A stretch of DNA of 64,000 nt from an uncultured bacterium (GTDB taxonomy: Bacteria; Krumholzibacteriota; Krumholzibacteriia; Krumholzibacteriales; Krumholzibacteriaceae). This document shows, in pieces, positions 11,491-31,737 of this stretch. The position numbers and the translations under genes are program-made. Below the pieces are notes generated by a model that searched no databases, had not been told where the DNA came from, and worked only from the letters and a program-made list of their open reading frames with translations. Location: positions 1-64,000 of the forward strand of contig CAWFAD010000016.1 of NCBI GenBank assembly GCA_963813815.1, read 5' to 3'. The first letter of the stretch is position 1. Every line of letters begins with the position of its first letter.

Positions 11491-11509
11491 CGGATTGCGG
11501 AGCGTATTC

Positions 11510-12419: not shown

Positions 12420-12420
12420 C

Positions 12421-16164: not shown

Positions 16165-16794
16165 CTAGGAGCAGGCTTCATTAACCCACCCGCCGAGACA
16201 GTAGGAGCAGAGCGCCTGATAGGCGCAGACGAAATAGACCCCTATGTTCATCGCGGCGATGGACGCGTTGGCGCACGTGAGCAATGCTACCAAAAACGGG
16301 ACCCATTTGCACGTCACGACACCCTTCTCCGGCGGATCGAGCGGAATGGCGACCTCGTCGTCCGAGAGGAGCCGGACGCCGGACCCGCCCTCGGCCGCCG
16401 CGGCGCCGGTCACGAGGGCCCCGAGGGCCGGAAAGCGGGCAAAGAGCCCATCCCGAAGCGCCTCGAGCCTCTGCCGCAGGAACGCGGCCTCCTCCTCGGA
16501 ATAGCCGAGCGTCGCCGCGAGATCCTTCGACCCGGCGGCCTGCAGCCGCGCGAGGTCGTCCACCGTCATGCCGCGCTCCGCGAGCCGCGCGGCCCCCTCC
16601 TGGAGCATTTCGATGAGCTCCCGGGTTTCCGGCGAGGCTCCGAGCTCCTCCTCGGCGCGTTCGAGCTCCGCGACGGCGGCCTCGCGCGTCCACAAGGTCT
16701 CCTCGGGGGGCTCGACCGGCTCTTCCGTCGCGCAGGAAAACGGGGCGCCTGCGATCGCCACAACGAGCATCAGAGAGAGCAGCTTTCTCGTCAT
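16165..16794 (-). CDS. Lipoprotein with Cys-rich hydrophobic C-terminal domain
   Basis: Lipobox PFSC; acidic helical body; last ~48 aa hydrophobic with 6 Cys; GGAGG RBS. Confidence 0.75.
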   Translation of the reverse strand: MTRKLLSLMLVVAIAGAPFSCATEEPVEPPEETLWTREAAVAELERAEEELGASPETRELIEMLQEGAARLAERGMTVDDLARLQAAGSKDLAATLGYSEEEAAFLRQRLEALRDGLFARFPALGALVTGAAAAEGGSGVRLLSDDEVAIPLDPPEKGVVTCKWVPFLVALLTCANASIAAMNIGVYFVCAYQALCSYCLGGWVNEACS

Positions 16795-17070: not shown

Positions 17071-17595
17071 TTAACCGCGTTGACCGGGAGGAACCGGCGG
17101 CTGCACCGCCCGCGAGTCGGGCGCCGAGAGCAGGAGGTCGCGGAGCTCCCTCGTCGCCTTTTCCACCTCGGGCGAAAGCGGCTCGCCGAGCTTCATGCTT
17201 TTCGGCTGGATGCCGACGAGAATCGCCTCTCCGCGCCAGACCTCGCGGAGGAACTGGATGCTGAAGTGAAGCGAAAGCCGGTGGGTGTTGCTCGCCGAGC
17301 GCATGAGATCCTCGATCGGGATGACGCGCCATTCGCCCGGCTCGCCGTCGAACACGACGGCGTCCACGAAGACGACCGCCTCGAGCCCCTGCTTCCCCGG
17401 CCATCCGCCGTAGTTCTCCGGGACCTCGGCGGCGTTCACGACCGGGAACGGGGCGTTTGAGGCGACGAGCAGATTCGCGAGCGCCGGCCCCGCGCCGTCA
17501 TCCCCCTTGAGCTCGTTCCCGACGCCGACCACGCCGAAGCGCTTGCCGGCGAGGCGGGAGGCGAGGGTTCGTGCCGAGGAATCGTTCATACCCAT
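17071..17595 (-). CDS. hycI: Hydrogenase maturation endopeptidase (HycI-like)
   Basis: GVGNELKGDDGAG, VPEN, VDAV, SNTH, GIQP motifs; last gene of the hydrogenase cluster. Confidence 0.9.
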   Translation of the reverse strand: MGMNDSSARTLASRLAGKRFGVVGVGNELKGDDGAGPALANLLVASNAPFPVVNAAEVPENYGGWPGKQGLEAVVFVDAVVFDGEPGEWRVIPIEDLMRSASNTHRLSLHFSIQFLREVWRGEAILVGIQPKSMKLGEPLSPEVEKATRELRDLLLSAPDSRAVQPPVPPGQRG

Positions 17596-17619
17596 AAAAA
17601 AGGCCCCGGAGCGGGGCCT
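17596..17619 (-). terminator. Intrinsic terminator-like hairpin immediately upstream of hycI
   Basis: Minus strand AGGCCCCG-ctc-CGGGGCCT followed by a T-run. Confidence 0.55.
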
Positions 17620-17647
17620 GTGTCCTTCGCCGCGATGGCCCGGCCCG

Positions 17648-18271
17648 TCAGCTCTCTCCCCATTCGTCGCTCAGAATGTAGGAAGAGCGGCAGTTCGGGC
17701 ACAGGACGCGCATGAAGTCGCTCCGCTCGAGCGGCCGCGGGTCGCGCGGGGCGACGTCCCGGGCGGCGCCGAGCATCTGGTGGCTCGCCACGGTCAGGGT
17801 CTGGTTCGCGTAGCTGAGCTCGCCGAGCTTGTCGCACATCCATCGCACGTGGTCGAGCGCCGTGATGGGGCTCCCGCAGCTTTCGCAGAACAGGAGCTCC
17901 TTGTCGTGCGTGTCCACGAAATCCGCCGGGTCGGTGGTCGATTTGTCGAAATCCTTGTCGAGGACGATGCCCTTCTTGGTGATGCAGTAGACGAAGCACT
18001 GGCTGCACATGATGCAGTTGCCCCAGTTGCGCTCGATGCGGCGCACCATCCGCTTCTTGTCCTCGCGATACTCGTCGACGACCGTGATCGCGCCCGCGGG
18101 GCAGACCTGGCCGCAGGCGCCGCAGCCGACGCACTCCTCGGGGTCGTAGGTCGGCACGCCGCGGAAATGCTCGGGCACCGTCGCCGGAACCTTGGGGAAC
18201 TTGGACGTGTACGGGCCCTTGATGAGGGCGATGGCCGCCTCTCTCAGCTCTCTCAATTTCGGCTTGCGCAT
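17648..18271 (-). CDS. NuoI/MbhN-like polyferredoxin subunit
   Basis: FRG..YDPEECVGCGACGQVCP and CIMCSQCFVYC, plus extra CESC and CPNC. Confidence 0.88.
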   Translation of the reverse strand: MRKPKLRELREAAIALIKGPYTSKFPKVPATVPEHFRGVPTYDPEECVGCGACGQVCPAGAITVVDEYREDKKRMVRRIERNWGNCIMCSQCFVYCITKKGIVLDKDFDKSTTDPADFVDTHDKELLFCESCGSPITALDHVRWMCDKLGELSYANQTLTVASHQMLGAARDVAPRDPRPLERSDFMRVLCPNCRSSYILSDEWGES

Positions 18272-18296
18272 GCTACTTCACAACTCCCGGTGCGGC

Positions 18297-18641
18297 TCAC
18301 GACTTGTCTTCGGCGCCCTCGCGGTCCTCGGCGTACTTGTCCACGTAGCTGCCTTCCCACAGCCGGATTCCCGACCGGTGGGCGGCACGCGATATCGCGT
18401 GCGCGGCCGTGGGCGAGGTGATGAGAATGAACCATATGCAGACCAGCGCCTTGACGCTGATCGCGTTGAATCCCGTGAAGAAGAGGACGCTCAGCAGGAT
18501 CGCGGAGGTGCCGAGCGTCACGCACTTCGTGCCCGCCTGGAGGCGGTTGTACACGTCGGGAAGGCGCAGGAGCCCGATGCAGCCGAGCACGTCGAAGCCG
18601 ATGCCGACGGACAGCAGGATGTATCCGATCGTCTCATTCAT
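18297..18641 (-). CDS. mnhG: Mrp antiporter subunit G
   Basis: GLLRLPDVYNRLQAGTK, TSPTAAHAISRAA. Confidence 0.92.
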   Translation of the reverse strand: MNETIGYILLSVGIGFDVLGCIGLLRLPDVYNRLQAGTKCVTLGTSAILLSVLFFTGFNAISVKALVCIWFILITSPTAAHAISRAAHRSGIRLWEGSYVDKYAEDREGAEDKS

Positions 18642-18888
18642 CGAAACCCCTTCCCTCGAGATACTTGGCGAGCGCCAGCGTCCCGATGAAGCTGAGAAGG
18701 GCCCATGAGATGGCGATGTTCATGTAGAGGTCTCTCTTCGTGATGATCGACCATATCGCGCAGAACCCGACGACGAGCGTGCCGAGGATATCGATGGCCA
18801 CGGTCCGGTCCGGCGCCGTCGGCCCCCGCCCCACGCGGTAGAGGCACATGAAAATGCACGCCAGCAGCAATATGATAAAGATGTTCAC
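18634..18888 (-). CDS. mnhF: Mrp antiporter subunit F
   Basis: GTG start; GPTAPDRTVAID, ALLSFIGTLALAKYL. Confidence 0.92.
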   Translation of the reverse strand: MNIFIILLLACIFMCLYRVGRGPTAPDRTVAIDILGTLVVGFCAIWSIITKRDLYMNIAISWALLSFIGTLALAKYLEGRGFDE

Positions 18889-19370
18889 TCGAATATCCTT
18901 TCGAGAAGCCGCTCGAACTGGCTCACGATAATCTCCGTGTCCTTCTGGATATCCGGGGAAACCACGTTGATCCAGTGGATGTAGAGATGGTCGCCGACGA
19001 TGTCGACGCTCATCGTGCCGGGGGTCAGCGTGATCGAATTCGCGAGGAACGTCCGCCCCATGTCGCTCTTGAGCTTCGTGCGCACCTTGACGATCCCGGG
19101 CTTGATCGGAAGATAGATGTTGAGCACGCGGTAGGCGACGTCGAAGTTGGCCTTGATCATCGCCCAGAGAAACACCCAGAAGTACACGAACAGCCAGAAG
19201 AAGCGGCGCGGATGGAAGATCTTGACCCCCTCGACGGGGAATATGTCGCCGAGCAGGAGATCGGCGAGGAGCGCGATGACGACGCCGGCGAGCACTTCCT
19301 GCCACTGGAACGACCACGTGAGCAGCAGCCAGACCGTCAAGATAATGAAGAAATGCAGGAACCGCTTCAT
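18885..19370 (-). CDS. mnhE: Mrp antiporter subunit E
   Basis: ANFDVA, IKPGIV, LANSITLTPGT, LYIHWI. Confidence 0.92.
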   Translation of the reverse strand: MKRFLHFFIILTVWLLLTWSFQWQEVLAGVVIALLADLLLGDIFPVEGVKIFHPRRFFWLFVYFWVFLWAMIKANFDVAYRVLNIYLPIKPGIVKVRTKLKSDMGRTFLANSITLTPGTMSVDIVGDHLYIHWINVVSPDIQKDTEIIVSQFERLLERIFE

Positions 19371-19375
19371 CCTGT

Positions 19376-20878
19376 TCACCCGCCGATGATGAATGCCATA
19401 TACGACATCTTGTCCAGGAGCGCGCGCCGCGCGGCCTCGAGAACGCCCTCGTCGACGATCGGGTACAGGACGCCGAGCGCCACGCACAGGACCGCGAGCA
19501 CGACGAGCGGCGCCGTCATGGCGAACGGCGACTCCTTGATGCCTTCGAGGCGCTTCGGCAGCCGACCGTACATCGCGAACTGCTGGAACCTCGTGAACGT
19601 CAGGAGCGTCAGGAACGCCACGAGGACCGCCACGCCGCCGTAGACGTAATATCCCGCCTGCATGAAGGCGACGATGATGACGAGCTTGCTCCAGAACCCG
19701 TTGAACGGCGGCACGCCCGCGATGGAGAGCGAGCCGATCGTGCACGCGGCCCCCGTCACCGGCATCCGCCGGATGAGGCCGCCGATTTCGTTGCGGTTTC
19801 TCGTCCCCGTGCGGTACTCGATCGAGCCGGCGCAGAGGAAGAGGAGCGACTTGAAGACCGCGTGGTTCACGAGATGATAGAGGGCGCCGAAGAGAGCGAG
19901 CGCCGAGATCGCCGCCGGCACGGCCGGATTGAGGCCGAGCCCGAGACCCATCATGACGTACCCGATCTGGCTGATCGAGCTATATGCCAGCATGCGCTTG
20001 ATGTCCGTCTGGCCGACCGCGAGCAGCACCCCCACGACCATCGAGAGGGCGCCGATGAACATGAAGATGCTCGATACCATCTCGTTCGGACCGATCACGC
20101 AGAACATGATGCGCGCGATGGCGTAGACGCCGAGCGCCTTGATGAGCACGCCCGAGAGCATCGCCGAGATGGGCGCCGGGGCGCTCGGGTGCGCGTCCGG
20201 GAGCCACGCGTGGAAGGGAACCGAGGAGGCCTTGAGACCGAACCCCATGATGAAGAGGGCGATCACGAAGGCGACCGCGCGGTTGATCCCGACGATCTCG
20301 ATCTGCCGGGCGAGATCGGGCATGTTGAGCGTGCCGGCGACCGAGTAGAGGAACGCGATCCCGAAGAGGATCGCCGTGCTCGCCACGGAGCCGAGGATGA
20401 GATACTTGAACGAGGCCTCGAGCTCCTCGTGCTCGCATCCGAACCCGACGAGCGCGTAGGAGGCGATCGACGCGATCTCGAGGAACACGAAGAGGTTGAA
20501 GAGATCGCCCGTGATGACGACGCCGTTCATGCCCGCGAGCATGAGGAGAAACAGCGAGAAGTACTTCGGCTTGGCCGTGTAGCCGTTCATGTACTGCAGG
20601 GAGTAGACGACGGAGAGGAAGCTCACGACGTTGATGATGAGGAGCATGAGCGAGCTCAGCCCGTCGGAGACGAGGAGAATGCCGAGCGGAGGAGGCCACC
20701 CGCCGACGTGGTAGGAGAAGGGCGTCTCGAAGATCATCCTGACCGCGAGGATCGCGAGCGCCGCCGTCACCGCCACCGCGATGTAATCGGCGAATCGCTT
20801 GTTGATCTTCGTCACGAGCAGGTTGAAGAACGCCGCCGCGAGCGGTATCGCCGTGAATAATGGATAGAGTCCCTGCAT
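19376..20878 (-). CDS. mnhD: Mrp antiporter subunit D / MbhH-like proton-translocating subunit
   Basis: GDLFNLFVFLE, PFHAWLPDAH..AP, KRMLAYSSISQIGY, GVPPFNGFWSK. Confidence 0.9.
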   Translation of the reverse strand: MQGLYPLFTAIPLAAAFFNLLVTKINKRFADYIAVAVTAALAILAVRMIFETPFSYHVGGWPPPLGILLVSDGLSSLMLLIINVVSFLSVVYSLQYMNGYTAKPKYFSLFLLMLAGMNGVVITGDLFNLFVFLEIASIASYALVGFGCEHEELEASFKYLILGSVASTAILFGIAFLYSVAGTLNMPDLARQIEIVGINRAVAFVIALFIMGFGLKASSVPFHAWLPDAHPSAPAPISAMLSGVLIKALGVYAIARIMFCVIGPNEMVSSIFMFIGALSMVVGVLLAVGQTDIKRMLAYSSISQIGYVMMGLGLGLNPAVPAAISALALFGALYHLVNHAVFKSLLFLCAGSIEYRTGTRNRNEIGGLIRRMPVTGAACTIGSLSIAGVPPFNGFWSKLVIIVAFMQAGYYVYGGVAVLVAFLTLLTFTRFQQFAMYGRLPKRLEGIKESPFAMTAPLVVLAVLCVALGVLYPIVDEGVLEAARRALLDKMSYMAFIIGG

Positions 20879-20900
20879 CGAAACCCCGTCTCGCTATCCG

Positions 20901-21251
20901 TCAGCCCTTGAGCCTGTTGATTTCACTCATATCGAACGTCTTGTATTTCTCGTACAGCCGCAGGCAGATCGCCACCATGAGCGCGAGGACGCCGAGCCCG
21001 ATCACGATCGAGGTGAGCACGAGGGCCTGCGGCAGCGGATCGACCGACGTCGCGTTGAACGTCGCGCGGTCCATGTCCTTGAAGAGAATCGGCGCCGTGC
21101 CGTTCCGCCGGTACCCGATGATGATGATGAAGAGGTTGACCGCGTAGTCCGTGATGGTGAGACCGATGATCTTCTTCACGATGTTCTTCTTCGCTATGAG
21201 GCAATAGACCCCCATCACGAACAGCACGAGCGTGAGAAAATAGAGAATCAT
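20901..21251 (-). CDS. mnhC: Mrp antiporter subunit C
   Basis: DPLPQALVLTSIVIG motif. Confidence 0.92.
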   Translation of the reverse strand: MILYFLTLVLFVMGVYCLIAKKNIVKKIIGLTITDYAVNLFIIIIGYRRNGTAPILFKDMDRATFNATSVDPLPQALVLTSIVIGLGVLALMVAICLRLYEKYKTFDMSEINRLKG

Positions 21252-21269
21252 GAACGAACCCCCGCTCCC

Positions 21270-21755
21270 TTATTCCTCTTCCTCGACGAGCTTCGAGACG
21301 AAGCGCCCGAATATCGACAGAGCCATGAAAATAGCGAAGAGCGACGCCGTCACCTTGAGCCCGATGACGATGTTGTACACCGGTATGAGCCCCGCGCTCA
21401 CCAGATGGAACGGCCTCCCCCGGTCGATGAAGTTGAGGAAGTACCATCCGAAGATAAGGCCGAACATCGGAATGACGGCGAACAGCAGCGCCGCCGTGTT
21501 GTCGAGGATCGAGGCGCCCTTGTCGCTCAGCTTCTTGAGACTCACATCCTTGCCGAACGCGAGCGTCAGCGCGACGTATCCGCACGCGAGGATGACGCCC
21601 CCCGCGAATCCCCCGCCCGGGGTCAGGTGGCCGTACAGTATGATGTACCAGCCGAACATGAAGATGATCCCCATGGCGAAGCGCACGACCGTCTTGACGA
21701 TCGTCGTCATGCCTTTCGGGCTTTCCGTGCTCACGATCTCGGGCTTCGTCGCCAT
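21270..21755 (-). CDS. mnhB: Mrp antiporter subunit B domain protein
   Basis: GHLTPGGGFAGG motif. Confidence 0.9.
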   Translation of the reverse strand: MATKPEIVSTESPKGMTTIVKTVVRFAMGIIFMFGWYIILYGHLTPGGGFAGGVILACGYVALTLAFGKDVSLKKLSDKGASILDNTAALLFAVIPMFGLIFGWYFLNFIDRGRPFHLVSAGLIPVYNIVIGLKVTASLFAIFMALSIFGRFVSKLVEEEE

Positions 21756-21758
21756 GCG

Positions 21759-22358
21759 TTACTCCCTGAACTCCTCGGAGTCTCCCCTGATCTCTTCGTC
21801 GGTCAGGATCCCGACCTTTTCCGTGTCCGCCGCCGAGCGCTGCTTGCGCCCGCGGCGCCGGAGGATGACGAACGCGCCGACGATCGAGGTAAAGAGCACC
21901 GTCGCCTCGCCGAGGGTGTCGTACCCGCGGAAGTCGAGGACGATGCTCGTCACGGCGTTCGCCGCGCCCGTCTTGTCGAGCGCCGTCTCCACGTACCGTT
22001 GCGACACTCGCATGAGCGGCTCGCCGAAGGGCCGGAGGTCCTGCACGGCGAGGAACGCGAACACGAGGAAGAGACCGAAGAAGATGAGGCTCGATACGAT
22101 GGAGAAGGTGTCCCAGTGAGCCTCGATCGCGGTGTTGTCCATGGTGATCGTGGCCCTGATGAGAACGATGAGGATGAGAATCTCGACCACCACCTGCGTG
22201 ATGGCGATGTCGGGCGCCTGCAGCATGAGGAACGCGATCGACACGCTGAAGCCCACGACGCCGCAGGAGATCACGGAGGAGAGGAGGTTCTTCGTCTCGA
22301 TCGCGATGATCGAGCCGACGATCATGAAGATGAGCAATATGAACAGGTACGATTCCAT
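21759..22358 (-). CDS. DUF4040 + MbhE-like membrane subunit
   Basis: APDIAITQ; NAVTSIVLDFRGYDTLGE. Confidence 0.85.
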   Translation of the reverse strand: MESYLFILLIFMIVGSIIAIETKNLLSSVISCGVVGFSVSIAFLMLQAPDIAITQVVVEILILIVLIRATITMDNTAIEAHWDTFSIVSSLIFFGLFLVFAFLAVQDLRPFGEPLMRVSQRYVETALDKTGAANAVTSIVLDFRGYDTLGEATVLFTSIVGAFVILRRRGRKQRSAADTEKVGILTDEEIRGDSEEFRE

Positions 22359-22379
22359 GCGTCCGCCTCGTCCGGCTCC

Positions 22380-24245
22380 TTACGGCTTGAAGATCAACAC
22401 GAACGACAGTATCCCGAGCCCGATGATGACCCAGGCGAGATAGGTCGACAGATTTCCGTTATGGATGGTTCTCAGAATCTGAACGAGCCCGCCGCCGAGC
22501 TTGCCGAAAATGTTGTACGGATCGATGGCCCCCTTCTCGCCGTCGGAGAACAGTATCTTCACCGCCGGGCCGAGGTCGTCCGTCACCGTTTTGTAGAACT
22601 GCGTCCCGGGAACGCGTATCTCCTCGTTGTCCATGACGTTGCCGCCGATCCAGACGTTCTCGTCCGTCCGGTAGGCCCCCCTGCCGCTGAAGGCGTAGAT
22701 GAGGAGCCCGAGAATGACGCCGGCGACGATGAACGCCGTCGCCGCGCCGGGGTTCCAGAAGCCGTCCGTGGGCAGGGTCGCGATGTTCCCCATCGAGATG
22801 TCAACGAGCTGCCCGTTCGCCACCGACGGGATGATGAACCGCTCGAGCGGGAACTGCGCGAAGATGCCGAACAGCACGCAGAGAATCGTGAGGAAGATCA
22901 TCGGGAGCTGCATCGAGAAGTCGACTTCCTTCACGCCCGCGAACCGGTCGGGCCGCCGGCCGAGGAAGACCGAGTGGAGCACCTTTACGAACGACGCGAG
23001 CGTGAGCGCGCTTCCGAAGATCGCCACCACGAGGAACACGACGTGCCGGCTCTCGAGCATGCCCTGATAGATGAGCCACTTCGAGGCGAAGCCGTTCATG
23101 GGCGGAATGCCCGAGATGGAGAGGGCCGCTATCGACATCGAGATGAACGTCACCGGCATGAGCTTCGCGAGGCCGCCGAGGTCTTCGAGCTCGCCGGTGC
23201 CGGTGCGCTTCTCCACCGCCCCCGCGCCGAAGAAGAGCGCGCTCTTGTAGATCGCGTTGTTGAGCATGTGGAACAGTCCGCCCACGATGGCGATCGGAAT
23301 CCCGCTTCCGACGCCGAGCACCATGTACCCCACCTGGCTCACGGCGTGGAAGGAGAGAAGCTTCTTGAGGTTGTGCTGCACGAGCGCCATGAGCACGGCG
23401 AAGATGATCGTCACGGCCCCCAGCGTCATCATGACGAGCGAGAGCGTCGAGCCCGCCTGAACGGCGAAGATGTCGATCGATACGCGGGCGAGGAAATAGA
23501 TGCCGAGGAGCTTGTCGAGCGAGGCGGGGAGAAACGCCATCGTCGGCGCCGGCGTCGCGGCCGCGATCGCGGGCACCCACGAATGCAGCGGGATCGCTCC
23601 GGCCTTGGCGATGGCGCCCGCGAAGAGCAGCAGGAACGAAACGGTCCCGAGCGTCGACCCCGTCGACACGTGGAGCTCCGAGATGGTGAGCGTGCCGGTC
23701 TGGAGCCAGACGAGAACGATGCCGGCCAGCATCGCCGCGTCGCTCAGCCCGAGGATCGTGAAGGCCTTGGCCGCGCCCTTTTCGTGATCCTTGTCCCCCA
23801 TGTTCGTCATGAAGAAGAGGAGCGCCGTGAGCGCTTCCCAGAACACGAGGAGCAGCAGGAGATTGTTCGAGAGAACGGCCCCCGTCGCCGCGGCCAGCGT
23901 CCAGAGAACGTAGGAGTAGTAAATGCTCGCCGTGGAGCGCTTCCAGAAATAGCCGAGCGAATAGAGGATCACGAGCACCGCGAAGATGGCGACGAAGAGC
24001 AGGATAAAGGCGCTCAGGGGATAGACCCGGAGCGAGAGATCGAAAGGAATCGTCCCGCCGAGGGAGAAAAGCGGCGCCGACCAGCTCGCCTCGCCGCCCC
24101 CGAAGAGCACGATCGCGTGCAGGAGCACCCACACCGCCGCCGCGAGGGCGACGATGCCGGCCACGAGCTTCGCCCGGCGCGGAACGAAGAGCGGAAACAC
24201 GCCCACCGCCGCCGCCACGACTATCGGATAGAGAAGTTGGTTCAT
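22380..24245 (-). CDS. NuoL/HyfB-like proton-translocating subunit
   Basis: LLVFWE, KAGAIPLHSW, KKLLSFHAVSQVGY, GIPPMNGFASKW. Confidence 0.88.
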   Translation of the reverse strand: MNQLLYPIVVAAAVGVFPLFVPRRAKLVAGIVALAAAVWVLLHAIVLFGGGEASWSAPLFSLGGTIPFDLSLRVYPLSAFILLFVAIFAVLVILYSLGYFWKRSTASIYYSYVLWTLAAATGAVLSNNLLLLLVFWEALTALLFFMTNMGDKDHEKGAAKAFTILGLSDAAMLAGIVLVWLQTGTLTISELHVSTGSTLGTVSFLLLFAGAIAKAGAIPLHSWVPAIAAATPAPTMAFLPASLDKLLGIYFLARVSIDIFAVQAGSTLSLVMMTLGAVTIIFAVLMALVQHNLKKLLSFHAVSQVGYMVLGVGSGIPIAIVGGLFHMLNNAIYKSALFFGAGAVEKRTGTGELEDLGGLAKLMPVTFISMSIAALSISGIPPMNGFASKWLIYQGMLESRHVVFLVVAIFGSALTLASFVKVLHSVFLGRRPDRFAGVKEVDFSMQLPMIFLTILCVLFGIFAQFPLERFIIPSVANGQLVDISMGNIATLPTDGFWNPGAATAFIVAGVILGLLIYAFSGRGAYRTDENVWIGGNVMDNEEIRVPGTQFYKTVTDDLGPAVKILFSDGEKGAIDPYNIFGKLGGGLVQILRTIHNGNLSTYLAWVIIGLGILSFVLIFKP

Positions 24246-24269
24246 TCGATTACGCTCCGGCGGACGAGT

Positions 24270-25478
24270 CTACGGGTTCCCCGCGCGCCGCGCCAGTCTT
24301 TTTCTCGTTTCCTCGGTCTTCTCATGGCTCATCCGCACCAGATCCGCTTCGGTGATCACGCGCCGCCCGCCGCCGCGGCAATCCACCACGCCGACGCGCT
24401 CCGTGCACGAGTAGCAGGGATCGACCGCCGCCGTGATGAGCCCCGCGTCGGCCACGGTGTTTCCCGGCACGCTCACCTCGTTCGTGAGGATGTTGTTGAA
24501 GCTCGGCGCGCGCACCTTGTGCCGCAACGGCATGTTGCCGCCGTTCGAGCGCACGTAGTGGAACACCTCGCCGCGCGGCGCTTCGTACGCGCCGAAGCCC
24601 TCCCCGGGCGGCACCTCGTTGATCTCCGCGCAGATGTCTCCGGCCTTCGTGTCCGCGATGAGCGCGAGGCACTGGCGGATGATCTTGATCGATTCGAAGT
24701 TCTCGAGCTGCCGGACGACCGCCTTGTCGAAGACGTCGCCGTGCTCGCACACGATCACGTTGAAGCTCACCTTGTCGTAGGCGTCGATCGGATGATCGCG
24801 CCGGATGTCGATGTCGTAGCCGGCCGAGCGGGCGGTGGGTCCGAGCGCGCCGTAGAGGCGGCACTGCTTCTTGTCGAGGACGCCGACGCCCTTGGTCCGC
24901 GCGTGGATGACCGGGTCGTCCACGATCGCCTTGGTGAGAAGGTCGTTCTCCTTCTCGATCCGGTCGAGGAGCTTCAGGATGTTCGGGATCTCCTCCGGCG
25001 GCAGATCGCGGCGCACGCCGCCCGGTTTCATGACGGCGTAGTGGTTGCGGTTCCCCGTGACCGCCTCGAGAATGTCGAGGAGCGGCTCGCGGAACTTCCA
25101 CGTCCACATGAACACGGTGTTGTATCCGAGAAAGTGGCCGGCGAGCCCCGTCCAGAGGAGGTGGCTGTGGAGACGCTCGAGCTCCGCGGCGACGCAGCGG
25201 ATGAACTGCGCCCGGAGCGGCACCTCGATCTGGCAGAGATCCTCGACCGCCTTGACGTAGGCGTACGGGTGCGAGCACGAGCAGATGCCGCAGATGCGCT
25301 CGACGAGGAAGGGCACCTGGTCCCACGTCTTGCGCTCGGAGAGGAGCTCGATCCCGCGGTGGCTCCAGCCGATCGTCTGATCGATCTTCACCACGCGCTC
25401 GCCCTCCACGTGGAGCTCGAAAAACTCGGGCTCCTCGAGGATCGGATGGAACGGGCCGATCGGGATCTTCTTGACCAT
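24270..25478 (-). CDS. Group 4 [NiFe]-hydrogenase large subunit
   Basis: L1 ERICGICSCSH and L2 DPCYSCTER Ni-binding motifs plus C-terminal extension for proteolytic maturation. Confidence 0.93.
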   Translation of the reverse strand: MVKKIPIGPFHPILEEPEFFELHVEGERVVKIDQTIGWSHRGIELLSERKTWDQVPFLVERICGICSCSHPYAYVKAVEDLCQIEVPLRAQFIRCVAAELERLHSHLLWTGLAGHFLGYNTVFMWTWKFREPLLDILEAVTGNRNHYAVMKPGGVRRDLPPEEIPNILKLLDRIEKENDLLTKAIVDDPVIHARTKGVGVLDKKQCRLYGALGPTARSAGYDIDIRRDHPIDAYDKVSFNVIVCEHGDVFDKAVVRQLENFESIKIIRQCLALIADTKAGDICAEINEVPPGEGFGAYEAPRGEVFHYVRSNGGNMPLRHKVRAPSFNNILTNEVSVPGNTVADAGLITAAVDPCYSCTERVGVVDCRGGGRRVITEADLVRMSHEKTEETRKRLARRAGNP

Positions 25479-25999
25479 TACGGATTCTTTCCTTTCGGCG
25501 GGCGCCCCGCAACCTCGTCCGAGCGCCAGTCGCCGTCGTCGCGCTGCCGCACGAGCGGCAGGCTATCCTTCATCTCGCGCTTCGCCGGGTAGAAATCGGC
25601 CGGACGGCTGTCGGAGCGCAGCAGCGGCCTGAGGTCCGGGTGATTCCTGAAGTTGACTTCGAACATCTCGAACATCTCCCGCTCGATCCACTTGGCGCCG
25701 GGGATCACCGGCGAGATCGAATCGAGCGTCGGATGCGGCTTGGAGGCGAAGGTCTTGATCGTCACGAAGAAATGGTCGCGGTCGAACGGGAAGAAGAACA
25801 TGACCTCGACGCCGTCGCGGTCGTCGACCGCGGCCCCCGTATCGAAACGCGCGTCGAGCGAGTCGAAGAGGAACCGGGCGAGGTCGACCCAGATTTCGTT
25901 CTCCGCGTAGACGTAGACGCGCTTCGGCGAGCGCTCCGCGATCCGCACCTTGGCGCCGTAGCGTTCCGCGATCCGACGTTTCACTTCTTCGCGTTCCAT
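25478..25999 (-). CDS. NuoC/MbhK-like hydrogenase subunit
   Basis: SISPVIPGAKWIEREMFEMF..F.NHP. Confidence 0.88.
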   Translation of the reverse strand: MEREEVKRRIAERYGAKVRIAERSPKRVYVYAENEIWVDLARFLFDSLDARFDTGAAVDDRDGVEVMFFFPFDRDHFFVTIKTFASKPHPTLDSISPVIPGAKWIEREMFEMFEVNFRNHPDLRPLLRSDSRPADFYPAKREMKDSLPLVRQRDDGDWRSDEVAGRPPKGKNP

Positions 26000-26040
26000 C
26001 GCTCTCTCTTCGCCCGCGGCCGGCGTTCCGTCCGCGGAGT

Positions 26041-26454
26041 CTATAGCTGGCTCAGAACCTTCACGATCCCGGAGATGATCGTCTCCGGTTTCGGCGGACA
26101 CCCCGGAATGTAGGCGTCCACCGGGATGTACTTGTCCATCGGGCCGACGACGTTGTAGGCGTCGCGGAAGATCCCGCACTTGCAGCCGCACGCGCCGAAC
26201 GCCACGACCTTGATCGGCCGGGGCGCCGCCTCGTAGAGGCGCCGCAGGCGGGGCAGCACGTTCGCCGTCACGGGGCCGCTCACGAGCAGCACGTCCGCGT
26301 GCCGGATGCTCCCGACGAGTATGACGCCGAACCGCTCCACGTCGAAGCGCGGCGTCAGGCAGTCGAGAATCTCGATATCGCAGTTGTTGCACGCCCCCGT
26401 GTTCACGTGGAACACCCACGGGGACTTCTTCAACGCCTTGAGCGCGAGCGACAT
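26041..26454 (-). CDS. Group 4 [NiFe]-hydrogenase small subunit (NuoB-like)
   Basis: GACNNCDIE, RHADVLLVSG, GAC, IPGCPP. Confidence 0.92.
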   Translation of the reverse strand: MSLALKALKKSPWVFHVNTGACNNCDIEILDCLTPRFDVERFGVILVGSIRHADVLLVSGPVTANVLPRLRRLYEAAPRPIKVVAFGACGCKCGIFRDAYNVVGPMDKYIPVDAYIPGCPPKPETIISGIVKVLSQL

Positions 26455-26467
26455 CAATGCCTCCGCA

Positions 26468-27400
26468 TCAGTATCCGAGCGTGGCGAGGATCAGCGCGAC
26501 GGCCGAGAGAACGAACATCGGCCCCCAGAAGAAGCGCAGCGCATGATCGATCCGCACCCGCGGATTCGTGTTCTTGACGACGACGATGATGACGACGATC
26601 GCGACGTACTTGAGAATCGAAGTGAGGATCCTCCAGCCGACGAAGCTCACGCCCCCCCAGAACATCGTGATGAGGAAGAGCGGCATCACGAGATACATGA
26701 TCGCCGTGTTGAGCCTGACGATGGCGAGCGGAGCTCCCGAATACTCGATGTGCGTGCCGCCCGCGATCTCCGTCTCGGCCTCGGGGATGTCGAAGGGGAT
26801 GAAGCCGAGCTTCGCCTGGGTGCAGAGCATCGCCACGATGAACGCGATGACGCCCGAGGCGCTCCCGAGCATCACGCCGTTGTATTCCTGATGGATGAGT
26901 ATCTTTTCGAAGGAAAAGCTCCCGACCTTGACGATCGTCGTGAGAACGGCCATCACGAGGGGAAGCTCGTAGCCGAAGAGCAGCTTCATCTCGCGGCTCG
27001 CTCCGAGAATGCCGAGCGGGTTGCCCGACGCGCTCCCGCCGATGATGAGGGCGAGCGCCGGGATCGTCATGATGTAGAGCGTGACGATCGAGTCGCCGAC
27101 GAACGACGCCGTGGGGTCGAGGTTGACGAGCCAGAGGATCGTCGAGGCGAGCGTCGCCGCGGCGAGGCCGACGACCGGCATGATGAGGAACCCGGTCGAG
27201 CGGGCGCCGGCGGGCACGACGACCTCCTTGCCGAGGAGCTTCACCGTGTCGGCGAACGGCTGGTACCACGGCGGGCCGACGCGGTACTGCACGCGGGCGG
27301 TGACCTTGCGGTCGACCCACGTCGTGAGAAGCCCGACGACCGCCGAGAAGACGAATCCCGGGAACACGAGATACTTCATCATGAATCCGAATACCTGCAT
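26468..27400 (-). CDS. NuoH/MbhM-like membrane anchor subunit
   Basis: DRKVTARVQYRVGPPWYQPFADTVKLLGKE; PFDIPEAETEI..G..IEYSG. Confidence 0.92.
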   Translation of the reverse strand: MQVFGFMMKYLVFPGFVFSAVVGLLTTWVDRKVTARVQYRVGPPWYQPFADTVKLLGKEVVVPAGARSTGFLIMPVVGLAAATLASTILWLVNLDPTASFVGDSIVTLYIMTIPALALIIGGSASGNPLGILGASREMKLLFGYELPLVMAVLTTIVKVGSFSFEKILIHQEYNGVMLGSASGVIAFIVAMLCTQAKLGFIPFDIPEAETEIAGGTHIEYSGAPLAIVRLNTAIMYLVMPLFLITMFWGGVSFVGWRILTSILKYVAIVVIIVVVKNTNPRVRIDHALRFFWGPMFVLSAVALILATLGY

Positions 27401-27411
27401 GATCTTCCTTG

Positions 27412-27891
27412 CTACCTCGGCAGCGTGAAGCGCGCGAGGTACCGCCCGCCCTCGACGGCGCGTTTCAGCTTTTTCTCGATCTCCGCGAGCTCCTCGAACA
27501 CGAGCGCCCCCGACGTGCACGTGGCGACGCAGCGCGGCTCCTTGCCCTCGGCGAGCCTGTCGGCGCAGAGGTCGCACTTGGGCGAGGTGTGCCACGTCGA
27601 GTACGGGAGCATGACGCCGAACGGGCATGCCATGATGCACGATTTGCAGCCGACGCAGAGGTTGCGCATCCGAGTAATCGTGCCGTTTTCGTCCTTTTTG
27701 ATCGCCTTCTGCGGGCACACGTTGAGGCAGAGCGGCTCCGCGCAATGACGGCAGTGGAGCGGCAGGGTCGCCTTTTCCTGGACGTGCCCGTGCTTGAGAT
27801 GCCCCTGCCCGTGGTGCGCCGCGGCGCACGCGGCCGCGCAGGAGCGGCACGAGGTGCAGAGGTTCATGTTGATATAAATTCTTTTTTCCAT
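27412..27891 (-). CDS. 4Fe-4S dicluster protein (HydN/CooF/DmsB-like)
   Basis: CTSCRSCAAAC, CRHCAEPLCLNVCP, CVGCKSCIMACPFG, KCDLC...PRCVATC. Confidence 0.9.
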   Translation of the reverse strand: MEKRIYINMNLCTSCRSCAAACAAAHHGQGHLKHGHVQEKATLPLHCRHCAEPLCLNVCPQKAIKKDENGTITRMRNLCVGCKSCIMACPFGVMLPYSTWHTSPKCDLCADRLAEGKEPRCVATCTSGALVFEELAEIEKKLKRAVEGGRYLARFTLPR

Positions 27892-27893
27892 AA

Positions 27894-29684
27894 TCAGTAT
27901 CTCGCGCTCTGGCGGCTCAGCTTCGCCGCGACCGGCCCGAGCACCGCCTCTCCCGCACCGGAGAGCCGCCACGGGAAGAGCTTGCGCACGGCGGGGAAGT
28001 GAATCGTCGCCGCCGCGACCTTGCCCGCGAGGCGCCCCGTGATTTCGACCGGAAGCACGATTTCGCCGCCGGCCGTCGACACGTCGACGCGGTCCCCCTT
28101 CGAGAGGCGGAGCCGCGCCGCGAGCTCCCCGGAGACCATGAGAACGGCGTCGGGACAGGTGATCTGCGACCAGTGGAAGTTTCTGCTGGCGGAGCCGTCC
28201 GCCGCGTGCACGGCCTCGCTCCACGGAATGAGCACGGCCTCGGCGCCGTCGAGATCCTTGACGAACGAAACGTACTCGGACCACTCGACGGCGAGGCCGT
28301 CGGTCGAGGCGGCGCGCCCCGCGATCCGCCGCGGATTCGAGACGGGGGCGAGCTCGCTTCCCATCTCCCGGGCGAGCATCGCGAGAAAATCGCCGTCCGA
28401 CACGCAGCCGGCCAGCGGCTTCATGACCTCCGTCCGCGCGAGGTCCTCGCCGAAGGCCGGAGATACGGTCCCCGGTTTCTCCATGAGGGTCGCCGCGGGA
28501 ATGACGATGTTGGCCCGCTCGGCCGTTTGGTTCCAGAACACCTGCGTCGTCACGGTGAACCGTTTCTCGCGCATCGCCTTTTCGATCGGGCCGGCCGGGT
28601 ACGCCGAGAAGAGGTCGAGCCCGAGAATGACGAGCGCCCGCAGCTCCGCGTCGGCGAGCTTGCGGATGCAATCGCTCTTGAGGGAGGCGGCGGCGAGCAC
28701 CGAGTGGATGCCCCACGTGTTCTGCTGAACGAGCTGGGGCGCGAACTCCCGATCCCCCGGCATGAGGAGCGTGAGCGCTTCGGCGAACGAGTAGACGAGC
28801 CCCGGCGCTCCGAAACGCCCGAATATGTTCGAAAGGTACGTCGAGACCTTCGCGGCGCCGAGCATCGATTGCGCGGCGGCGGCGATCGCGGCCTTCGGCA
28901 CGCCGCCGAGATGCTCGATCTCGCTCCAGTCGATCTTGTCGAGCAGCTGCTTGAGCCCCGCGGGCAGCTCGGCCTTCGTTTTCTCGACGGCCGCCTTGAG
29001 GAGTCCGGCCGCGACAGCGGCCTCGCCGCCGGGCCTCGTCCGCAGGTGCCGGTTCGCGAACCACGCCGTGTGGTTCACGTCGGGGCTCACCACGATCACT
29101 TCGCTCCCGCGCGATCCGTACTTGCCCGGCAGGACGCTCTTCGCCGTGCACGGATGCTCCGAAAACGGATCGCCGAAGACGAGCGAGACGGTCCGGTCGC
29201 CGGCGGGCTTGGTCCCGGCCGGCTTCACTCCCGAGAAGTCCCGCGCGAGGTGCGCGCGGAAGAGCGGCGCGTCGTCGGGGGCGAAGAGCGCGACGTTGTC
29301 CGTGCCGACGACCTCGCGGGCGAACCGCACGGCGAGCGCGGCCTCCTCGATCGTGAGGTTCTCGCCGAGGAGCACGCCGATCGAGCCGGGTCCGTGCGCC
29401 GCCTTGACGTCGGCGAGGCTCTTCGCCGTCTCGCGCACGGCGGCGGCGATCGTCGTCCGCTCGCCGAGCATGAACGGATAGTCGATGCGCCGCGGATGCG
29501 AGAGGAGCTCGGCGATCGCGTTGCCGCGCGCGCAGAGGCTGCCGCCGAACTTCGAGCCCTCCCCGCGGTCCCAGTCGACCGAGAGAAGCGATTCCTTGCC
29601 GAAGATCGGCCCGCGCGAGCCCCCCGCGATGACGAGCGGGCAGGCGAGCGAGCAGAGCGAGCAGTTGCCTTTCAGTTCCTTCAT
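27894..29684 (-). CDS. Molybdopterin-oxidoreductase-fold (FdhF/NuoG-like) Fe-S subunit lacking the FDH metal ligand
   Basis: N-terminal CSLCSLAC...LCARG cluster; TAERANIVIPAAT..EKPGT; C-terminal Molydop_binding-like region; no C/U-H motif found. Confidence 0.75.
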   Translation of the reverse strand: MKELKGNCSLCSLACPLVIAGGSRGPIFGKESLLSVDWDRGEGSKFGGSLCARGNAIAELLSHPRRIDYPFMLGERTTIAAAVRETAKSLADVKAAHGPGSIGVLLGENLTIEEAALAVRFAREVVGTDNVALFAPDDAPLFRAHLARDFSGVKPAGTKPAGDRTVSLVFGDPFSEHPCTAKSVLPGKYGSRGSEVIVVSPDVNHTAWFANRHLRTRPGGEAAVAAGLLKAAVEKTKAELPAGLKQLLDKIDWSEIEHLGGVPKAAIAAAAQSMLGAAKVSTYLSNIFGRFGAPGLVYSFAEALTLLMPGDREFAPQLVQQNTWGIHSVLAAASLKSDCIRKLADAELRALVILGLDLFSAYPAGPIEKAMREKRFTVTTQVFWNQTAERANIVIPAATLMEKPGTVSPAFGEDLARTEVMKPLAGCVSDGDFLAMLAREMGSELAPVSNPRRIAGRAASTDGLAVEWSEYVSFVKDLDGAEAVLIPWSEAVHAADGSASRNFHWSQITCPDAVLMVSGELAARLRLSKGDRVDVSTAGGEIVLPVEITGRLAGKVAAATIHFPAVRKLFPWRLSGAGEAVLGPVAAKLSRQSARY

Positions 29685-29727
29685 GCGCTTTCCGTGGCGC
29701 CGTGACGGCCCGCGCCGTCGACGCCTC

Positions 29728-30546
29728 TCAGCCGAACACGTTCGGAACGTGCTTGATCTTGTCGTAACACATGTCGGGCCCGTCGACGCAGAGGTAGTAG
29801 TGCCCGACGTTGCAGCGGCCGCACTTTCCCATGCCGCAGGACATCTTGCGGTTCATCGAGAGATAGATCTGCGGCGGCTGGTAGCCGACCTCGAGCAGCT
29901 TCAGCGTGACGAACTTGAGCATGATCTCGGGGCCGCAGGAGAGCGCGATCGAGTTGTCGAGATCGATGTCGAGGCCGTCGAGGAGCGTCGTGACGAGCCC
30001 CACCCGGCCGTTCCATCCCGCCGCCGGCACGTCGATCGTGTTCGTGAAGTCGACGTTCGACGCGACCTTTCCCCAGCCGTCGTACTGCCGCTTGAAGCAG
30101 AGCTCCTCGGGGCTCCGGGCCCCGTACTTGATCGAGACCCTCTTGTATTTCTTCGGATTTTCGATCAGGGCGTAAATGAGGGAGCGCAGCGGCGCGAGCC
30201 CCACGCCTCCGCCCACGACGAGAACTTCCTTCCCCTCGAGCTTCTCGAGCGGATAGCCCTTGCCGAACGGCCCGCGCAGCCCCACCTCGGCGCCCGGCTT
30301 GAGCGCGTGGAGCGCGTCGGTGATCTTGCCGGTGCGGAGTATCGAGATCTCCATCTTCTCCGCGACGCTCGGGGAGGAGCTCGGCGTGAACGGCGCCTCG
30401 CCGTACCCGGGCACGGAGAGCTGCATGAACTGGCCGGCCTTGAACTTGATCGGGCGCGAGGGCACGAGGACGAACGTCTTGATCGTCGGCGTTTCGACGA
30501 CGACGTCCTCGACGACGGTCTCGATGGGATAGTACGGGTTCTTCAT
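29728..30546 (-). CDS. FAD/NAD(P)-binding 2Fe-2S subunit (AsrB / sulfhydrogenase gamma-like)
   Basis: GQF..GEAPF, RGPFGKGY, VGGGVGLAP, CGPEIM, MSCGMGKCGRC..CVDGP. Confidence 0.9.
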   Translation of the reverse strand: MKNPYYPIETVVEDVVVETPTIKTFVLVPSRPIKFKAGQFMQLSVPGYGEAPFTPSSSPSVAEKMEISILRTGKITDALHALKPGAEVGLRGPFGKGYPLEKLEGKEVLVVGGGVGLAPLRSLIYALIENPKKYKRVSIKYGARSPEELCFKRQYDGWGKVASNVDFTNTIDVPAAGWNGRVGLVTTLLDGLDIDLDNSIALSCGPEIMLKFVTLKLLEVGYQPPQIYLSMNRKMSCGMGKCGRCNVGHYYLCVDGPDMCYDKIKHVPNVFG

Positions 30547-30549
30547 GCC

Positions 30550-31614
30550 CTAGGCTTTCTTGCTCCCGGCCTTTTCCTTGATCGTGCGCAGCGACTCCCG
30601 CATGTCGATGCTCGCCGAACAGGTGTCGACGCAGCGGCCGCAGCCCGTGCAGAACACGGCGCCGTGGCTCTCCACGAGGTAATCGAATTTATGGAAATAG
30701 CGGTGCTTCACGCGGTCGGCGAGTCGCGGCCGCGGGTTGAGCATTCCCGCCATCCGGGCGTACCCGGTCACCTGGCAGGAATCCCAGGTGAATATTCTCT
30801 GGAAATGGTCCCCGCCCGCCCGCTGGTCGAAGAGCAGGAAGCAGTAGCAGGTCGGGCAGATGTTGGTGCAGGCGCCGCATTCGACGCAACGCGCCGCGAT
30901 GGCGTCCCAGGCTTCGCTCTGCAGCGACGCGCGGACGATCTCGGTGAGCTTGGCGTCGGCCTTCGGAAAGGCGCGGTTCTGCTCCTCGAGCTGCTTCACG
31001 ACCGCGGCGCGCGTCTCGTCGCGCATTTTGACCTGCGCGTCACGCGCCTCGGTGAAGAGATTGTCGCTCTCCTTGATGAGCTTTTCGCCGCGCGCGCTCG
31101 CCGCCTCGGCGAGATAGCCGCCCTGAATCTTCGCGATCGAAACGTCGCACCCTTTCTCGGGCCAGGGCTTGCCGCCGAGCAGATTGCAGAAGCAGCTCGC
31201 GCCGCATTCGCCGCAGTCGGCGCCGATGAGGATCATCCGGTCGCGGCGGATCTTGTAGAAGGGATCCGTGAACTCCCCCTCGGTCTCCACCTTGTCGACG
31301 AGGGCGAAGGCGGCGAGATCGCAGCCGCGCGCCCCGACGATCACCGTCACGGGGAAGGTCTTCTCGTCCGGCATCTCGTCCCCCTCCGTCGAGGGGTAAT
31401 CCGCGACGGGACAGCGGAGGAGCTGCGCGAAGCTCTTGAGCGGCTCGATCGCGCGCCGGCCGTCGAGGCCGAGGTTTTCGGGAAGCGGGAAGTGCTCGAC
31501 GCGCTCGAAACGGAGCTTGCCCGTTTCGGCGTTGCGCACGGGAACGAAAAGCTCTCCGTCCGTTGAGAGCTTCTTCAGGAAGCGCTCGAAATTGGTTGCG
31601 TCAATAAAATACAT
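30550..31614 (-). CDS. 4Fe-4S subunit (AsrA / sulfhydrogenase beta-like)
   Basis: RGCD, CGASCFC, CVECGACTNICPTCYCF, WDSC, HKF, CTGCGRCVDTC. Confidence 0.9.
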   Translation of the reverse strand: MYFIDATNFERFLKKLSTDGELFVPVRNAETGKLRFERVEHFPLPENLGLDGRRAIEPLKSFAQLLRCPVADYPSTEGDEMPDEKTFPVTVIVGARGCDLAAFALVDKVETEGEFTDPFYKIRRDRMILIGADCGECGASCFCNLLGGKPWPEKGCDVSIAKIQGGYLAEAASARGEKLIKESDNLFTEARDAQVKMRDETRAAVVKQLEEQNRAFPKADAKLTEIVRASLQSEAWDAIAARCVECGACTNICPTCYCFLLFDQRAGGDHFQRIFTWDSCQVTGYARMAGMLNPRPRLADRVKHRYFHKFDYLVESHGAVFCTGCGRCVDTCSASIDMRESLRTIKEKAGSKKA

Positions 31615-31709: not shown

Positions 31710-31737
31710 ATTATCCACGAACCCGAGAGGGTGTCAA
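31710..31737 (-). promoter_or_regulatory. Candidate sigma70-type promoter of the hydrogenase operon
   Basis: Minus strand TTGACA-16 nt-GATAAT about 95 bp upstream of the asrA-like start. Confidence 0.5.

What the first reader, a model, noticed from the sequence alone, without database searches (positions are those of the whole stretch)
17071..31614. Mrp-coupled group 4 [NiFe]-hydrogenase with its own flavin/NAD(P)H input module
Seen: one 18-gene minus-strand run: AsrA-like, AsrB-like (FAD/NAD, 2Fe-2S), FdhF/NuoG-fold Fe-S protein, HydN-like ferredoxin, NuoH/B/C-like subunits, large subunit with intact Ni ligands, NuoL-like subunit, MbhE-like subunit, MnhB-C-D-E-F-G, NuoI-like subunit and protease. 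Known: Mbh-Mrp of Thermococcales uses ferredoxin, while AsrAB/sulfhydrogenase beta-gamma subunits exchange electrons with NAD(P)H in soluble enzymes. Inference: a membrane complex linking NAD(P)H and H2 to Na+/H+ translocation, either ion-driven H2 evolution from NADH (useful to an amino-acid fermenter) or energy-conserving H2 oxidation.
Basis: partly seen in the sequence, partly recalled or inferred. Interest (0 to 1): 0.75.

Follow-up and report, generated by a model that had tools for sequence, protein, structure and literature searches.

The report
Hun-type NADH-linked membrane hydrogenase operon
This is an intact 18-gene cluster for a membrane-bound nickel-iron hydrogenase joined to a sodium/proton antiporter, a new copy of the published "Hun" complex, which likely turns NADH rather than ferredoxin into hydrogen gas and likely uses its formate-dehydrogenase-like subunit only as a cofactor-free scaffold.

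Summary
In detail: 18 intact minus-strand genes (31614 to 17071), a near-consensus promoter ahead of asrA, and all four Ni-binding cysteines.

It is not new. It is the "Hun" complex of Glass et al. (bioRxiv 10.1101/536078), matching the Saganbacteria cluster in PMC6349859; this scan reported it before on other DNA. The large subunit nests among Hun-type sequences (support 1.0). asrA and asrB lie upstream in 58 of 58 related loci with enough flank.

New here:
(1) The FdhF-fold subunit has Asp at the Mo-ligand position and lacks the catalytic His and Arg. It persists in 11 of 11 genomes of its genus, where moeA and moaC were found in none, so it is likely a cofactor-free scaffold.
(2) The AsrB-like subunit has an invariant Asp (79 of 79) where NADPH-using sulfhydrogenase I has Thr-Arg, favouring NADH over the published ferredoxin model.
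With Mbh polarity, NADH→H2 pumping works only at about 0.02–14 Pa H2.

The parts
31710..31737 (-). sigma-70-type promoter-like site TTGACA-16-GATAAT; no Rex box
   Evidence: similar sites in 27 of 66 loci vs 0.8 expected; Rex pattern absent
30550..31614 (-). HunA: AsrA / sulfhydrogenase-beta-like Fe-S protein, 354 aa, about three [4Fe-4S] clusters predicted
   Evidence: best PDB hit P. furiosus SHI beta 9NEZ_B, E 9.5e-38; 9 Cys invariant in 68 of 68, four more in 61-67 of 68
29728..30546 (-). HunB: AsrB / sulfhydrogenase-gamma-like FAD, NAD, [2Fe-2S] subunit, 272 aa; invariant Asp172 suggests NADH
   Evidence: best PDB hit SHI gamma 9NEZ_C, E 2.9e-46; D172 in 79 of 79
27894..29684 (-). FdhF-fold subunit, 596 aa: N-terminal [4Fe-4S] Cys kept; Asp138 at the Cys/Sec Mo-ligand position; catalytic His and Arg lost; likely cofactor-free scaffold
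   Evidence: AlphaFold pLDDT 93.5; Foldseek TM 0.79-0.80 to Fdh and Nap; moeA and moaC not found in the genus
27412..27891 (-). HunC: HycB/HydN/CooF-like multi-[4Fe-4S] ferredoxin, 159 aa
26468..27400 (-). NuoH-like membrane subunit, 310 aa
   Evidence: charged residues conserved
26041..26454 (-). small subunit (NuoB-like), 137 aa
   Evidence: C22, C25, C89, C119 in 111-112 of 112
25478..25999 (-). NuoC-like subunit, 173 aa
24270..25478 (-). HunG: group 4 [NiFe] large subunit, 402 aa; L1 RICGIC, L2 DPCYSC; C-terminal extension
   Evidence: best PDB hits MbhL 6CFW_L (E 9e-85) and HycE 7Z0S_E; tree
22380..24245 (-). first antiporter-like subunit (NuoL/MrpA-D type), 621 aa; Glu137 kept here, Gly in 41 of 91 sequences
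21759..22358 (-). MbhD+MbhE fusion (MrpA C-terminal-like), 199 aa
21270..21755 (-). MnhB/MrpB, 161 aa
20901..21251 (-). MnhC/MrpC, 116 aa
19376..20878 (-). second antiporter-like subunit MnhD/MbhH, 500 aa; E134, K216, K247, K398 conserved
18885..19370 (-). MnhE, 161 aa
18634..18888 (-). MnhF, 84 aa
18297..18641 (-). MnhG, 114 aa
17648..18271 (-). HunP: NuoI/HycF-like 2x[4Fe-4S] subunit with extra CxxC...CxxC, 207 aa
   Evidence: (best NCBIfam hit is the FHL Fe-S subunit PRK12387)
17601..17619 (-). terminator-like hairpin between hunP and the protease gene
   Evidence: 19 such sites vs 10.8 expected in the region, so weak alone
17071..17595 (-). HycI-type maturation protease, 172-174 aa

Best explanation
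The 18 genes encode a Hun-type group 4 [NiFe]-hydrogenase with a full Mrp antiporter set, and the complex likely oxidises NADH at its AsrB-like flavoprotein and likely passes the electrons through a predicted Fe-S chain to make H2, likely coupled to outward H+/Na+ movement as in Mbh. Inferred path: NADH to FAD and [2Fe-2S] (HunB), then HunA, HunC, HunP, the small subunit and the NiFe site. The FdhF-fold subunit is inferred to be a Mo-free scaffold, like NuoG of complex I. In this fermenter, Rnf (ferredoxin to NAD+) and Hun (NADH to H2) would form a two-step chain. Pumping would work only when partners keep H2 at a few Pa or less; above that the enzyme would stall or reverse. Shown: genes, motifs, synteny, clade, and failure to find moeA, moaC or a true moaA. 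Inferred: assembly, donor, direction and coupling.
For: asrA, asrB and the ferredoxin gene are upstream in 58 of 58 loci with at least 7 kb of flank. HunA and HunB are closest to the diaphorase subunits of SHI. Asp172 is invariant in 79 of 79. It aligns with T-D in PyrK and NfnA and S-D in NqrF, against T-R in NADPH-using SHI gamma. Rat cytochrome b5 reductase D239T switches NAD to NADP (PMC5817062 table passage; that D239 is the equivalent position is recalled). Rex-like boxes occur upstream of asrA in 15 of 38 distant loci vs 4.1 expected, fitting NADH disposal. The FdhF-fold gene is absent with a gap of at most 100 nt in 42 of 82 loci. It lacks the catalytic residues, and 14 of the 32 family genomes that carry it show neither moeA nor moaC. 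The host has Rnf, Nfn, POR, two V/A-ATPases, HypABCDEF and a hydroxyproline dehydratase. No FeFe hydrogenase, COX1 or second NuoH was found.
Against: No biochemistry. The window has no Rex box and no rex gene was found in its genome; only 2 of 26 close loci have a box, vs 1.2 expected. One charge out per H2 needs H2 below 0.02-14 Pa depending on NADH/NAD+ and membrane force; two charges need below 0.3 Pa. This copy keeps both pump-type glutamates. The Asp rule is imperfect: NADH-using Physarum b5 reductase has Asn there, and HunB also keeps the GAR motif (R or K in 78 of 79) seen in SHI gamma. Published work assigns ferredoxin. The genomes are 81-96% complete.
Confidence: 0.42

Rival explanations
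1. Ferredoxin-driven Mbh-type pump (published Hun model): reduced ferredoxin feeds the Fe-S arm, H2 is made and H+/Na+ are pumped; HunAB is a relay or side branch.
For: Glass et al. passage; group 4g is generally read as ferredoxin-coupled. Fd to H2 yields -18 to -45 kJ/mol, enough for two antiporter-like subunits. POR is present.
Against: HunB keeps FAD, NAD and [2Fe-2S] motifs in 76-79 of 79. An NAD+-reducing flavin on the same wire would short-circuit ferredoxin to NAD+ (inference). HunP is HycF-like, a type that binds a fixed HycB partner (FHL layout recalled). Rex-like boxes occur in distant loci.
Confidence: 0.2
2. One reading: coupling reversed relative to Mbh, so ion influx drives NADH to H2 at high H2, or H2 oxidation to NAD+ pumps ions out. 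Net Na+ influx through the Mrp module could give this.
For: One charge in allows NADH to H2 up to 700-74,000 Pa. This fits a fermenter with no FeFe hydrogenase found and Rex-like boxes in relatives. A full Mrp set is present.
Against: Mbh couples H2 evolution to building the gradient (passage), and no reversed member of the complex I / group 4 superfamily is known to me (recalled). NuoH- and antiporter-type charged residues are conventional.
Confidence: 0.17
3. Same NADH-linked enzyme with Mbh polarity, used in vivo backwards: ion influx drives oxidation of trace H2 to supply NADH for reductive (Stickland-type) or biosynthetic steps.
For: Above about 0.02-14 Pa H2 the coupled equilibrium favours H2 to NAD+. 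A hydroxyproline dehydratase and glutamate dehydrogenase lie in the window. This genome shows no Rex control.
Against: Rnf (32 of 35 family genomes) already makes NADH. An Mvh-Hdr uptake system is present. Rex-like boxes in relatives point to NADH disposal.
Confidence: 0.15
4. The FdhF-fold subunit is a true Mo/W enzyme with an Asp ligand, and its unknown substrate is the electron donor, as in formate hydrogenlyase.
For: Fold intact (TM 0.79-0.80). Asp138 in 94 of 95 aligned sequences. Several pocket-side motifs are conserved in close homologues. Asp ligands occur in NarG-type enzymes (recalled). Other genera of the family have moeA and moaC.
Against: moeA 0 of 11 and moaC 0 of 11 in the genus; no moaA over cut-off in the window's genome. 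The gene is missing from 42 of 82 loci and shortened to 380-480 aa in some. Asp138 precedes a helix and may be a cap.
Confidence: 0.04

Closest known systems
Hun Ni-Fe hydrogenase-Na+/H+ antiporter supercomplex (Glass et al., bioRxiv 10.1101/536078; HydDB group 4g)
   Same: AsrAB-like front module, Fe-S subunit, hydrogenase core, Mrp set; optional molybdopterin-domain gene between hunB and hunC; L1 CGIC (passages).
   Different: L2 is CYSC, not the CYCC given as the Hun signature (56 CYSC, 65 CYCC among 122 related large subunits). Krumholzibacteriota are not named in the passages read. The paper proposes ferredoxin as donor; the evidence here favours NADH.
'Enigmatic' group 4 hydrogenase of Saganbacteria RX5A (Matheus Carnevali et al. 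2019, PMC6349859)
   Same: asrA, asrB, cooF-like gene, unclassified molybdopterin oxidoreductase with one [4Fe-4S], Mrp subunits.
   Different: Donor left unknown and the Mo protein treated as a putative enzyme; here it is argued to be cofactor-free.
Mbh (Mrp-MBH) of Pyrococcus furiosus, PDB 6CFW
   Same: Best solved match for the large subunit and both antiporter-like subunits.
   Different: Ferredoxin-fed, one antiporter-like subunit, no diaphorase (recalled); this cluster has two such subunits and a four-gene input module.
Sulfhydrogenase I beta/gamma (group 3b), PDB 9NEZ
   Same: Best solved match for HunA and HunB.
   Different: Soluble and NADPH-linked, with Thr-Arg where HunB has Asp.
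Formate hydrogenlyase FdhF-HycB-HycF arm (7Z0S/7Z0T) and complex I NuoG
   Same: FdhF-fold, HycB-like and HycF-like subunits. NuoG is a cofactor-free FdhF-fold scaffold (recalled).
   Different: No Cys/Sec ligand, His or Arg. The NADH module is AsrAB-type, not NuoEF.

Membership tests
Hun supercomplex | AsrA- and AsrB-like genes heading a 16-subunit hydrogenase + Mrp cluster | tested here: met
   against the description
Hun supercomplex | optional [4Fe-4S] molybdopterin-domain gene between hunB and hunC | tested here: met
   27894-29684
Hun supercomplex | large subunit L1 CGIC | tested here: met
   RICGIC
Hun supercomplex | large subunit L2 CYCC | tested here: inconclusive
   The window has CYSC, so the literal motif is absent. 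CYSC occurs in several branches inside the CYCC clade with the same gene order, so the motif does not separate members.
Hun supercomplex | large subunit forms a clade apart from other group 4 enzymes | tested here: met
   Clade support 1.0 with 66 locus sequences; 53 of 56 unnamed representatives fall outside, 3 inside. The published HunG reference itself was not in the tree.
HydDB group 4g | assignment by the HydDB classifier | not testable with these tools
   taken from Glass et al. for HunG
Group 4 [NiFe]-hydrogenase (not Ehr/Mbx) | four metal-binding Cys, maturation protease and Hyp proteins | tested here: met
Group 4 [NiFe]-hydrogenase (not Ehr/Mbx) | H2 evolution or uptake and ion translocation | not testable with these tools
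   needs biochemistry
Mo/W formate dehydrogenase (FdhF) | Cys/Sec ligand, adjacent His, catalytic Arg | tested here: not met
   Asp138, variable residue 139, Val319 (the Arg position is matched from the recalled RGQNN motif)
Mo/W formate dehydrogenase (FdhF) | host can make molybdenum cofactor | tested here: not met
   no moeA, moaC or over-cut-off moaA found in the 90.8%-complete genome; moeA and moaC in 0 of 11 of the genus
Anaerobic sulfite reductase AsrABC | AsrC catalytic subunit in the cluster; curated cut-offs for AsrA and AsrB | tested here: not met
   none of the 18 genes is AsrC-like; AsrA 120 vs 323 bits, AsrB 196 vs 289 bits
Rex regulon | Rex box upstream and rex gene | tested here: not met

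The most novel reading that the evidence does not exclude
Hun is a proton-reducing counterpart of complex I, assembled independently: a sulfhydrogenase-type NADH module and a cofactor-free FdhF scaffold sit on a group 4 hydrogenase with a full Mrp. It conserves energy from NADH to H2 at the thermodynamic limit, and the Glu-to-Gly change in one pump subunit (41 of 91 sequences) tunes the ion stoichiometry.
Probability: 0.3. Interest if true: 0.8.

Novelty: new member of a known kind. Interest (0 to 1): 0.36.

Why it matters
Hun is widespread in uncultured anaerobes. In the searches made I found only genomic descriptions of it, which assume ferredoxin or leave the donor open. If NADH is the donor, it would be an ion-coupled NADH:H+ oxidoreductase, changing energy budgets drawn for many subsurface and digester fermenters and giving a parallel to the origin of complex I's NADH module. 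The sequence evidence gives specific tests: Asp172 in HunB, the empty cofactor site, and the Glu/Gly137 switch. The locus itself is one more copy of a named system.

Tried and rejected
Complex prediction of HunA with HunC and HunP was not available, so no interface result exists. A VIA second look was not run. No RNA holder was listed for the locus, which is no evidence either way. Rex control was tested after an earlier-finding lead and not found for this genome. Formate dehydrogenase and sulfite reductase roles were rejected (see the membership tests). A simple Mbx/Ehr reading was rejected because all four Cys are present. No paper held Krumholzibacter + hydrogenase + Mrp. The SHI structure paper was not found in the library, so its NADP contacts were not read. 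The rat b5 reductase alignment was listed but not printed. HydDB could not be run. bioRxiv supplements of Glass et al. (Table S5, list of hun genomes) are closed and may already include this lineage. 17 of 29 supplementary files of PMC6349859 were not searched.
Full report
OBSERVATION. The window holds 18 open minus-strand genes from 31614 to 17071 in the order given. Pfam and NCBIfam assign them as AsrA-like, AsrB-like, FdhF-fold, HycB/HydN-like, NuoH, NuoB, NuoC, large subunit, NuoL-like, MbhD+E, MnhB, C, D, E, F, G, NuoI/HycF-like and HycI. Gaps among the first 17 genes are -8 to +43 nt. An 11-of-12 sigma-70-type site lies about 95 nt ahead of asrA, and a terminator-like hairpin separates the last structural gene from the protease. 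A promoter pattern modelled on the window's site occurs upstream of asrA in 27 of 66 loci, against 0.8 in shuffles. One transcript is therefore likely but not shown. The large subunit has RICGIC and DPCYSC, and hypABCDEF are elsewhere in the genome.

HOST. The closest named records are Ca. Krumholzibacteriota, at 75-92% large-subunit identity. At E<=1e-120 the large subunit was found in 29 of 155 genomes of the phylum, all in the window's own order. The genome (90.8% complete) encodes Rnf, NfnAB, POR, HdrABC-MvhADG, three NuoF-type modules and two V/A-ATPases, and a hydroxyproline dehydratase above cut-off. One ATPase K subunit has a recalled Na+-type motif. No FeFe hydrogenase, COX1 or second NuoH was found. 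It reads as an anaerobic amino-acid fermenter (inference).

SYNTENY AND FAMILY. All 58 with at least 7 kb upstream carry asrA, asrB and the ferredoxin gene there. Among 82 loci with asrB and the ferredoxin gene, blastp found the FdhF-fold gene in 38. In 42 the two genes are at most 100 nt apart; the other 2 have 1.7 kb gaps holding copies found otherwise. In a FastTree tree of 123 large subunits (11 close loci kept; metagenome loci of unknown FdhF status left out), the window groups with all 66 locus sequences at support 1.0, and 53 of 56 unnamed representatives fall outside. CYSC and the FdhF-fold gene are both scattered within this clade. This is the Hun complex. Glass et al. (passages) describe AsrAB-like HunAB, an optional molybdopterin-domain protein, group 4g, L2 CYCC and ferredoxin as donor. 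Matheus Carnevali et al. (passages and Supplementary Note 5) describe the same set in Saganbacteria. Earlier notes of this scan report it from other genomes, including a Krumholzibacteriota.

FDHF-FOLD SUBUNIT. The model is confident (pLDDT 93.5) and matches Fdh and Nap (TM 0.79-0.80). The [4Fe-4S] cysteines are kept in 94-95 of 95 sequences. The profile alignment puts Asp138 (94 of 95) on the Cys/Sec ligand and a variable residue on the catalytic His; Val319 replaces the Arg (position from a recalled motif). In the genus, 11 of 11 genomes have this gene, while 0 of 11 show moeA and 0 of 11 show moaC (completeness 81-96%). Family-wide, 14 of 32 carriers show neither, although moeA matched in 19 and moaC in 20 of 35 genomes. 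The window's genome has no moaA over cut-off. Some distant copies are cut to 380-480 aa. A cofactor-free scaffold, as NuoG is (recalled), is the likely reading. The conserved Asp is the main point against it.

NADH MODULE. HunA and HunB are closest to the beta and gamma subunits of P. furiosus sulfhydrogenase I. The FAD, GGGxG, GP and [2Fe-2S] motifs are kept in 76-79 of 79. Asp172 is invariant; PyrK, NfnA and NqrF have Asp at or next to this place, and SHI gamma has Thr-Arg. Rat b5 reductase D239T changes NAD to NADP use (table passage, PMC5817062; positional equivalence recalled). Against: Physarum b5 reductase has Asn there, and a GAR/K motif is shared with SHI gamma. Rex-like boxes (up to 3 mismatches) lie upstream of asrA in 15 of 38 distant loci vs 4.1 expected, but in only 2 of 26 close loci vs 1.2. 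The window has none and no rex gene was found. These loci are related, so the counts are not independent.

MEMBRANE ARM AND DIRECTION. Both antiporter-like subunits match MbhH best. MnhD keeps E134, K216, K247 and K398 in 62-65 of 65. The first subunit has Glu137 in 50 and Gly in 41 of 91 sequences, Glu in the window; this tracks lineage. Mbh makes H2 while building the gradient (passage). With textbook potentials that I entered, NADH to H2 with one charge out needs H2 below 0.02-14 Pa across NADH/NAD+ of 0.1-10 and 100-150 mV, and two charges need below 0.3 Pa. With one charge in, it runs up to 700-74,000 Pa. I therefore favour NADH to H2 with Mbh polarity at low H2 (0.42). The rivals are ferredoxin input (0.20), reversed polarity (0.17), H2 uptake in vivo (0.15) and a Mo enzyme (0.04). 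No interface could be computed.

LITERATURE SEEN. Passages: 10.1101/536078, PMC6349859 (plus supplement file 11, part 3), PMC5817062, PMC8542988, PMC9324843, PMC13582414, PMC7382037. Listings only for the rest. Searches showed no biochemical study of Hun and no paper proposing NADH specificity or a cofactor-free subunit; the library lacks most subscription journals. The NAD(P)H idea itself appears in earlier scan notes.

VERDICT. A real, intact operon and a new member of a named system with only genomic descriptions found. The added value is the residue-level and genome-level evidence on donor and scaffold. Interest 0.36.

Noticed in passing
G000:C5:41446-42906 minus (L052, L139); relatives L140-L168: The MvhA-like (group 3c) large subunit has an in-frame TGA at the second Cys of the N-terminal motif (CxxU). 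TGA occurs in 14 of 30 loci and TGC/TGT in 16, with a conserved downstream hairpin-forming stretch. The genome has SelA and tRNA-Sec. PMC13582414 (passages) reports N-terminal Sec for group 4 and says groups 1 and 3 predominantly carry C-terminal Sec, so this may be an unreported group 3 variant; no dedicated literature search was made.
   Followed up: partly
window 22380-24245 and related loci: The Glu (position 137) of the first antiporter-like subunit is Gly in 41 of 91 sequences, mostly those without the FdhF-fold gene (26 Gly, 8 Glu), suggesting one disabled pump in many Hun complexes.
   Followed up: partly
G000:C16:478293-484334 minus (L051:10293-16334): NuoE/NuoF-like genes plus a 1229-aa GltD-like protein with a second degenerate FdhF-fold domain, resembling NfnABC/Bfu transhydrogenases.
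   Followed up: no
window 11495-14784 plus: Glycyl-radical activase and trans-4-hydroxy-L-proline dehydratase (above cut-off). The activase ORF appears to change frame near 12100-12420.
   Followed up: partly
L125 and L091: A more distant AsrAB-linked hydrogenase (group 3b-like; L125) or a second group 4 hydrogenase (L091) lies directly upstream of the Hun cluster.
   Followed up: no
family genus g12 (G013, G014): The one genus where neither the Hun genes nor MvhA was found has FeFe-domain matches and Rnf.
   Followed up: no
window 16165-16794 minus: 209-aa lipoprotein-like ORF with a Cys-rich C-terminus and no Pfam match, downstream of the protease.
   Followed up: no
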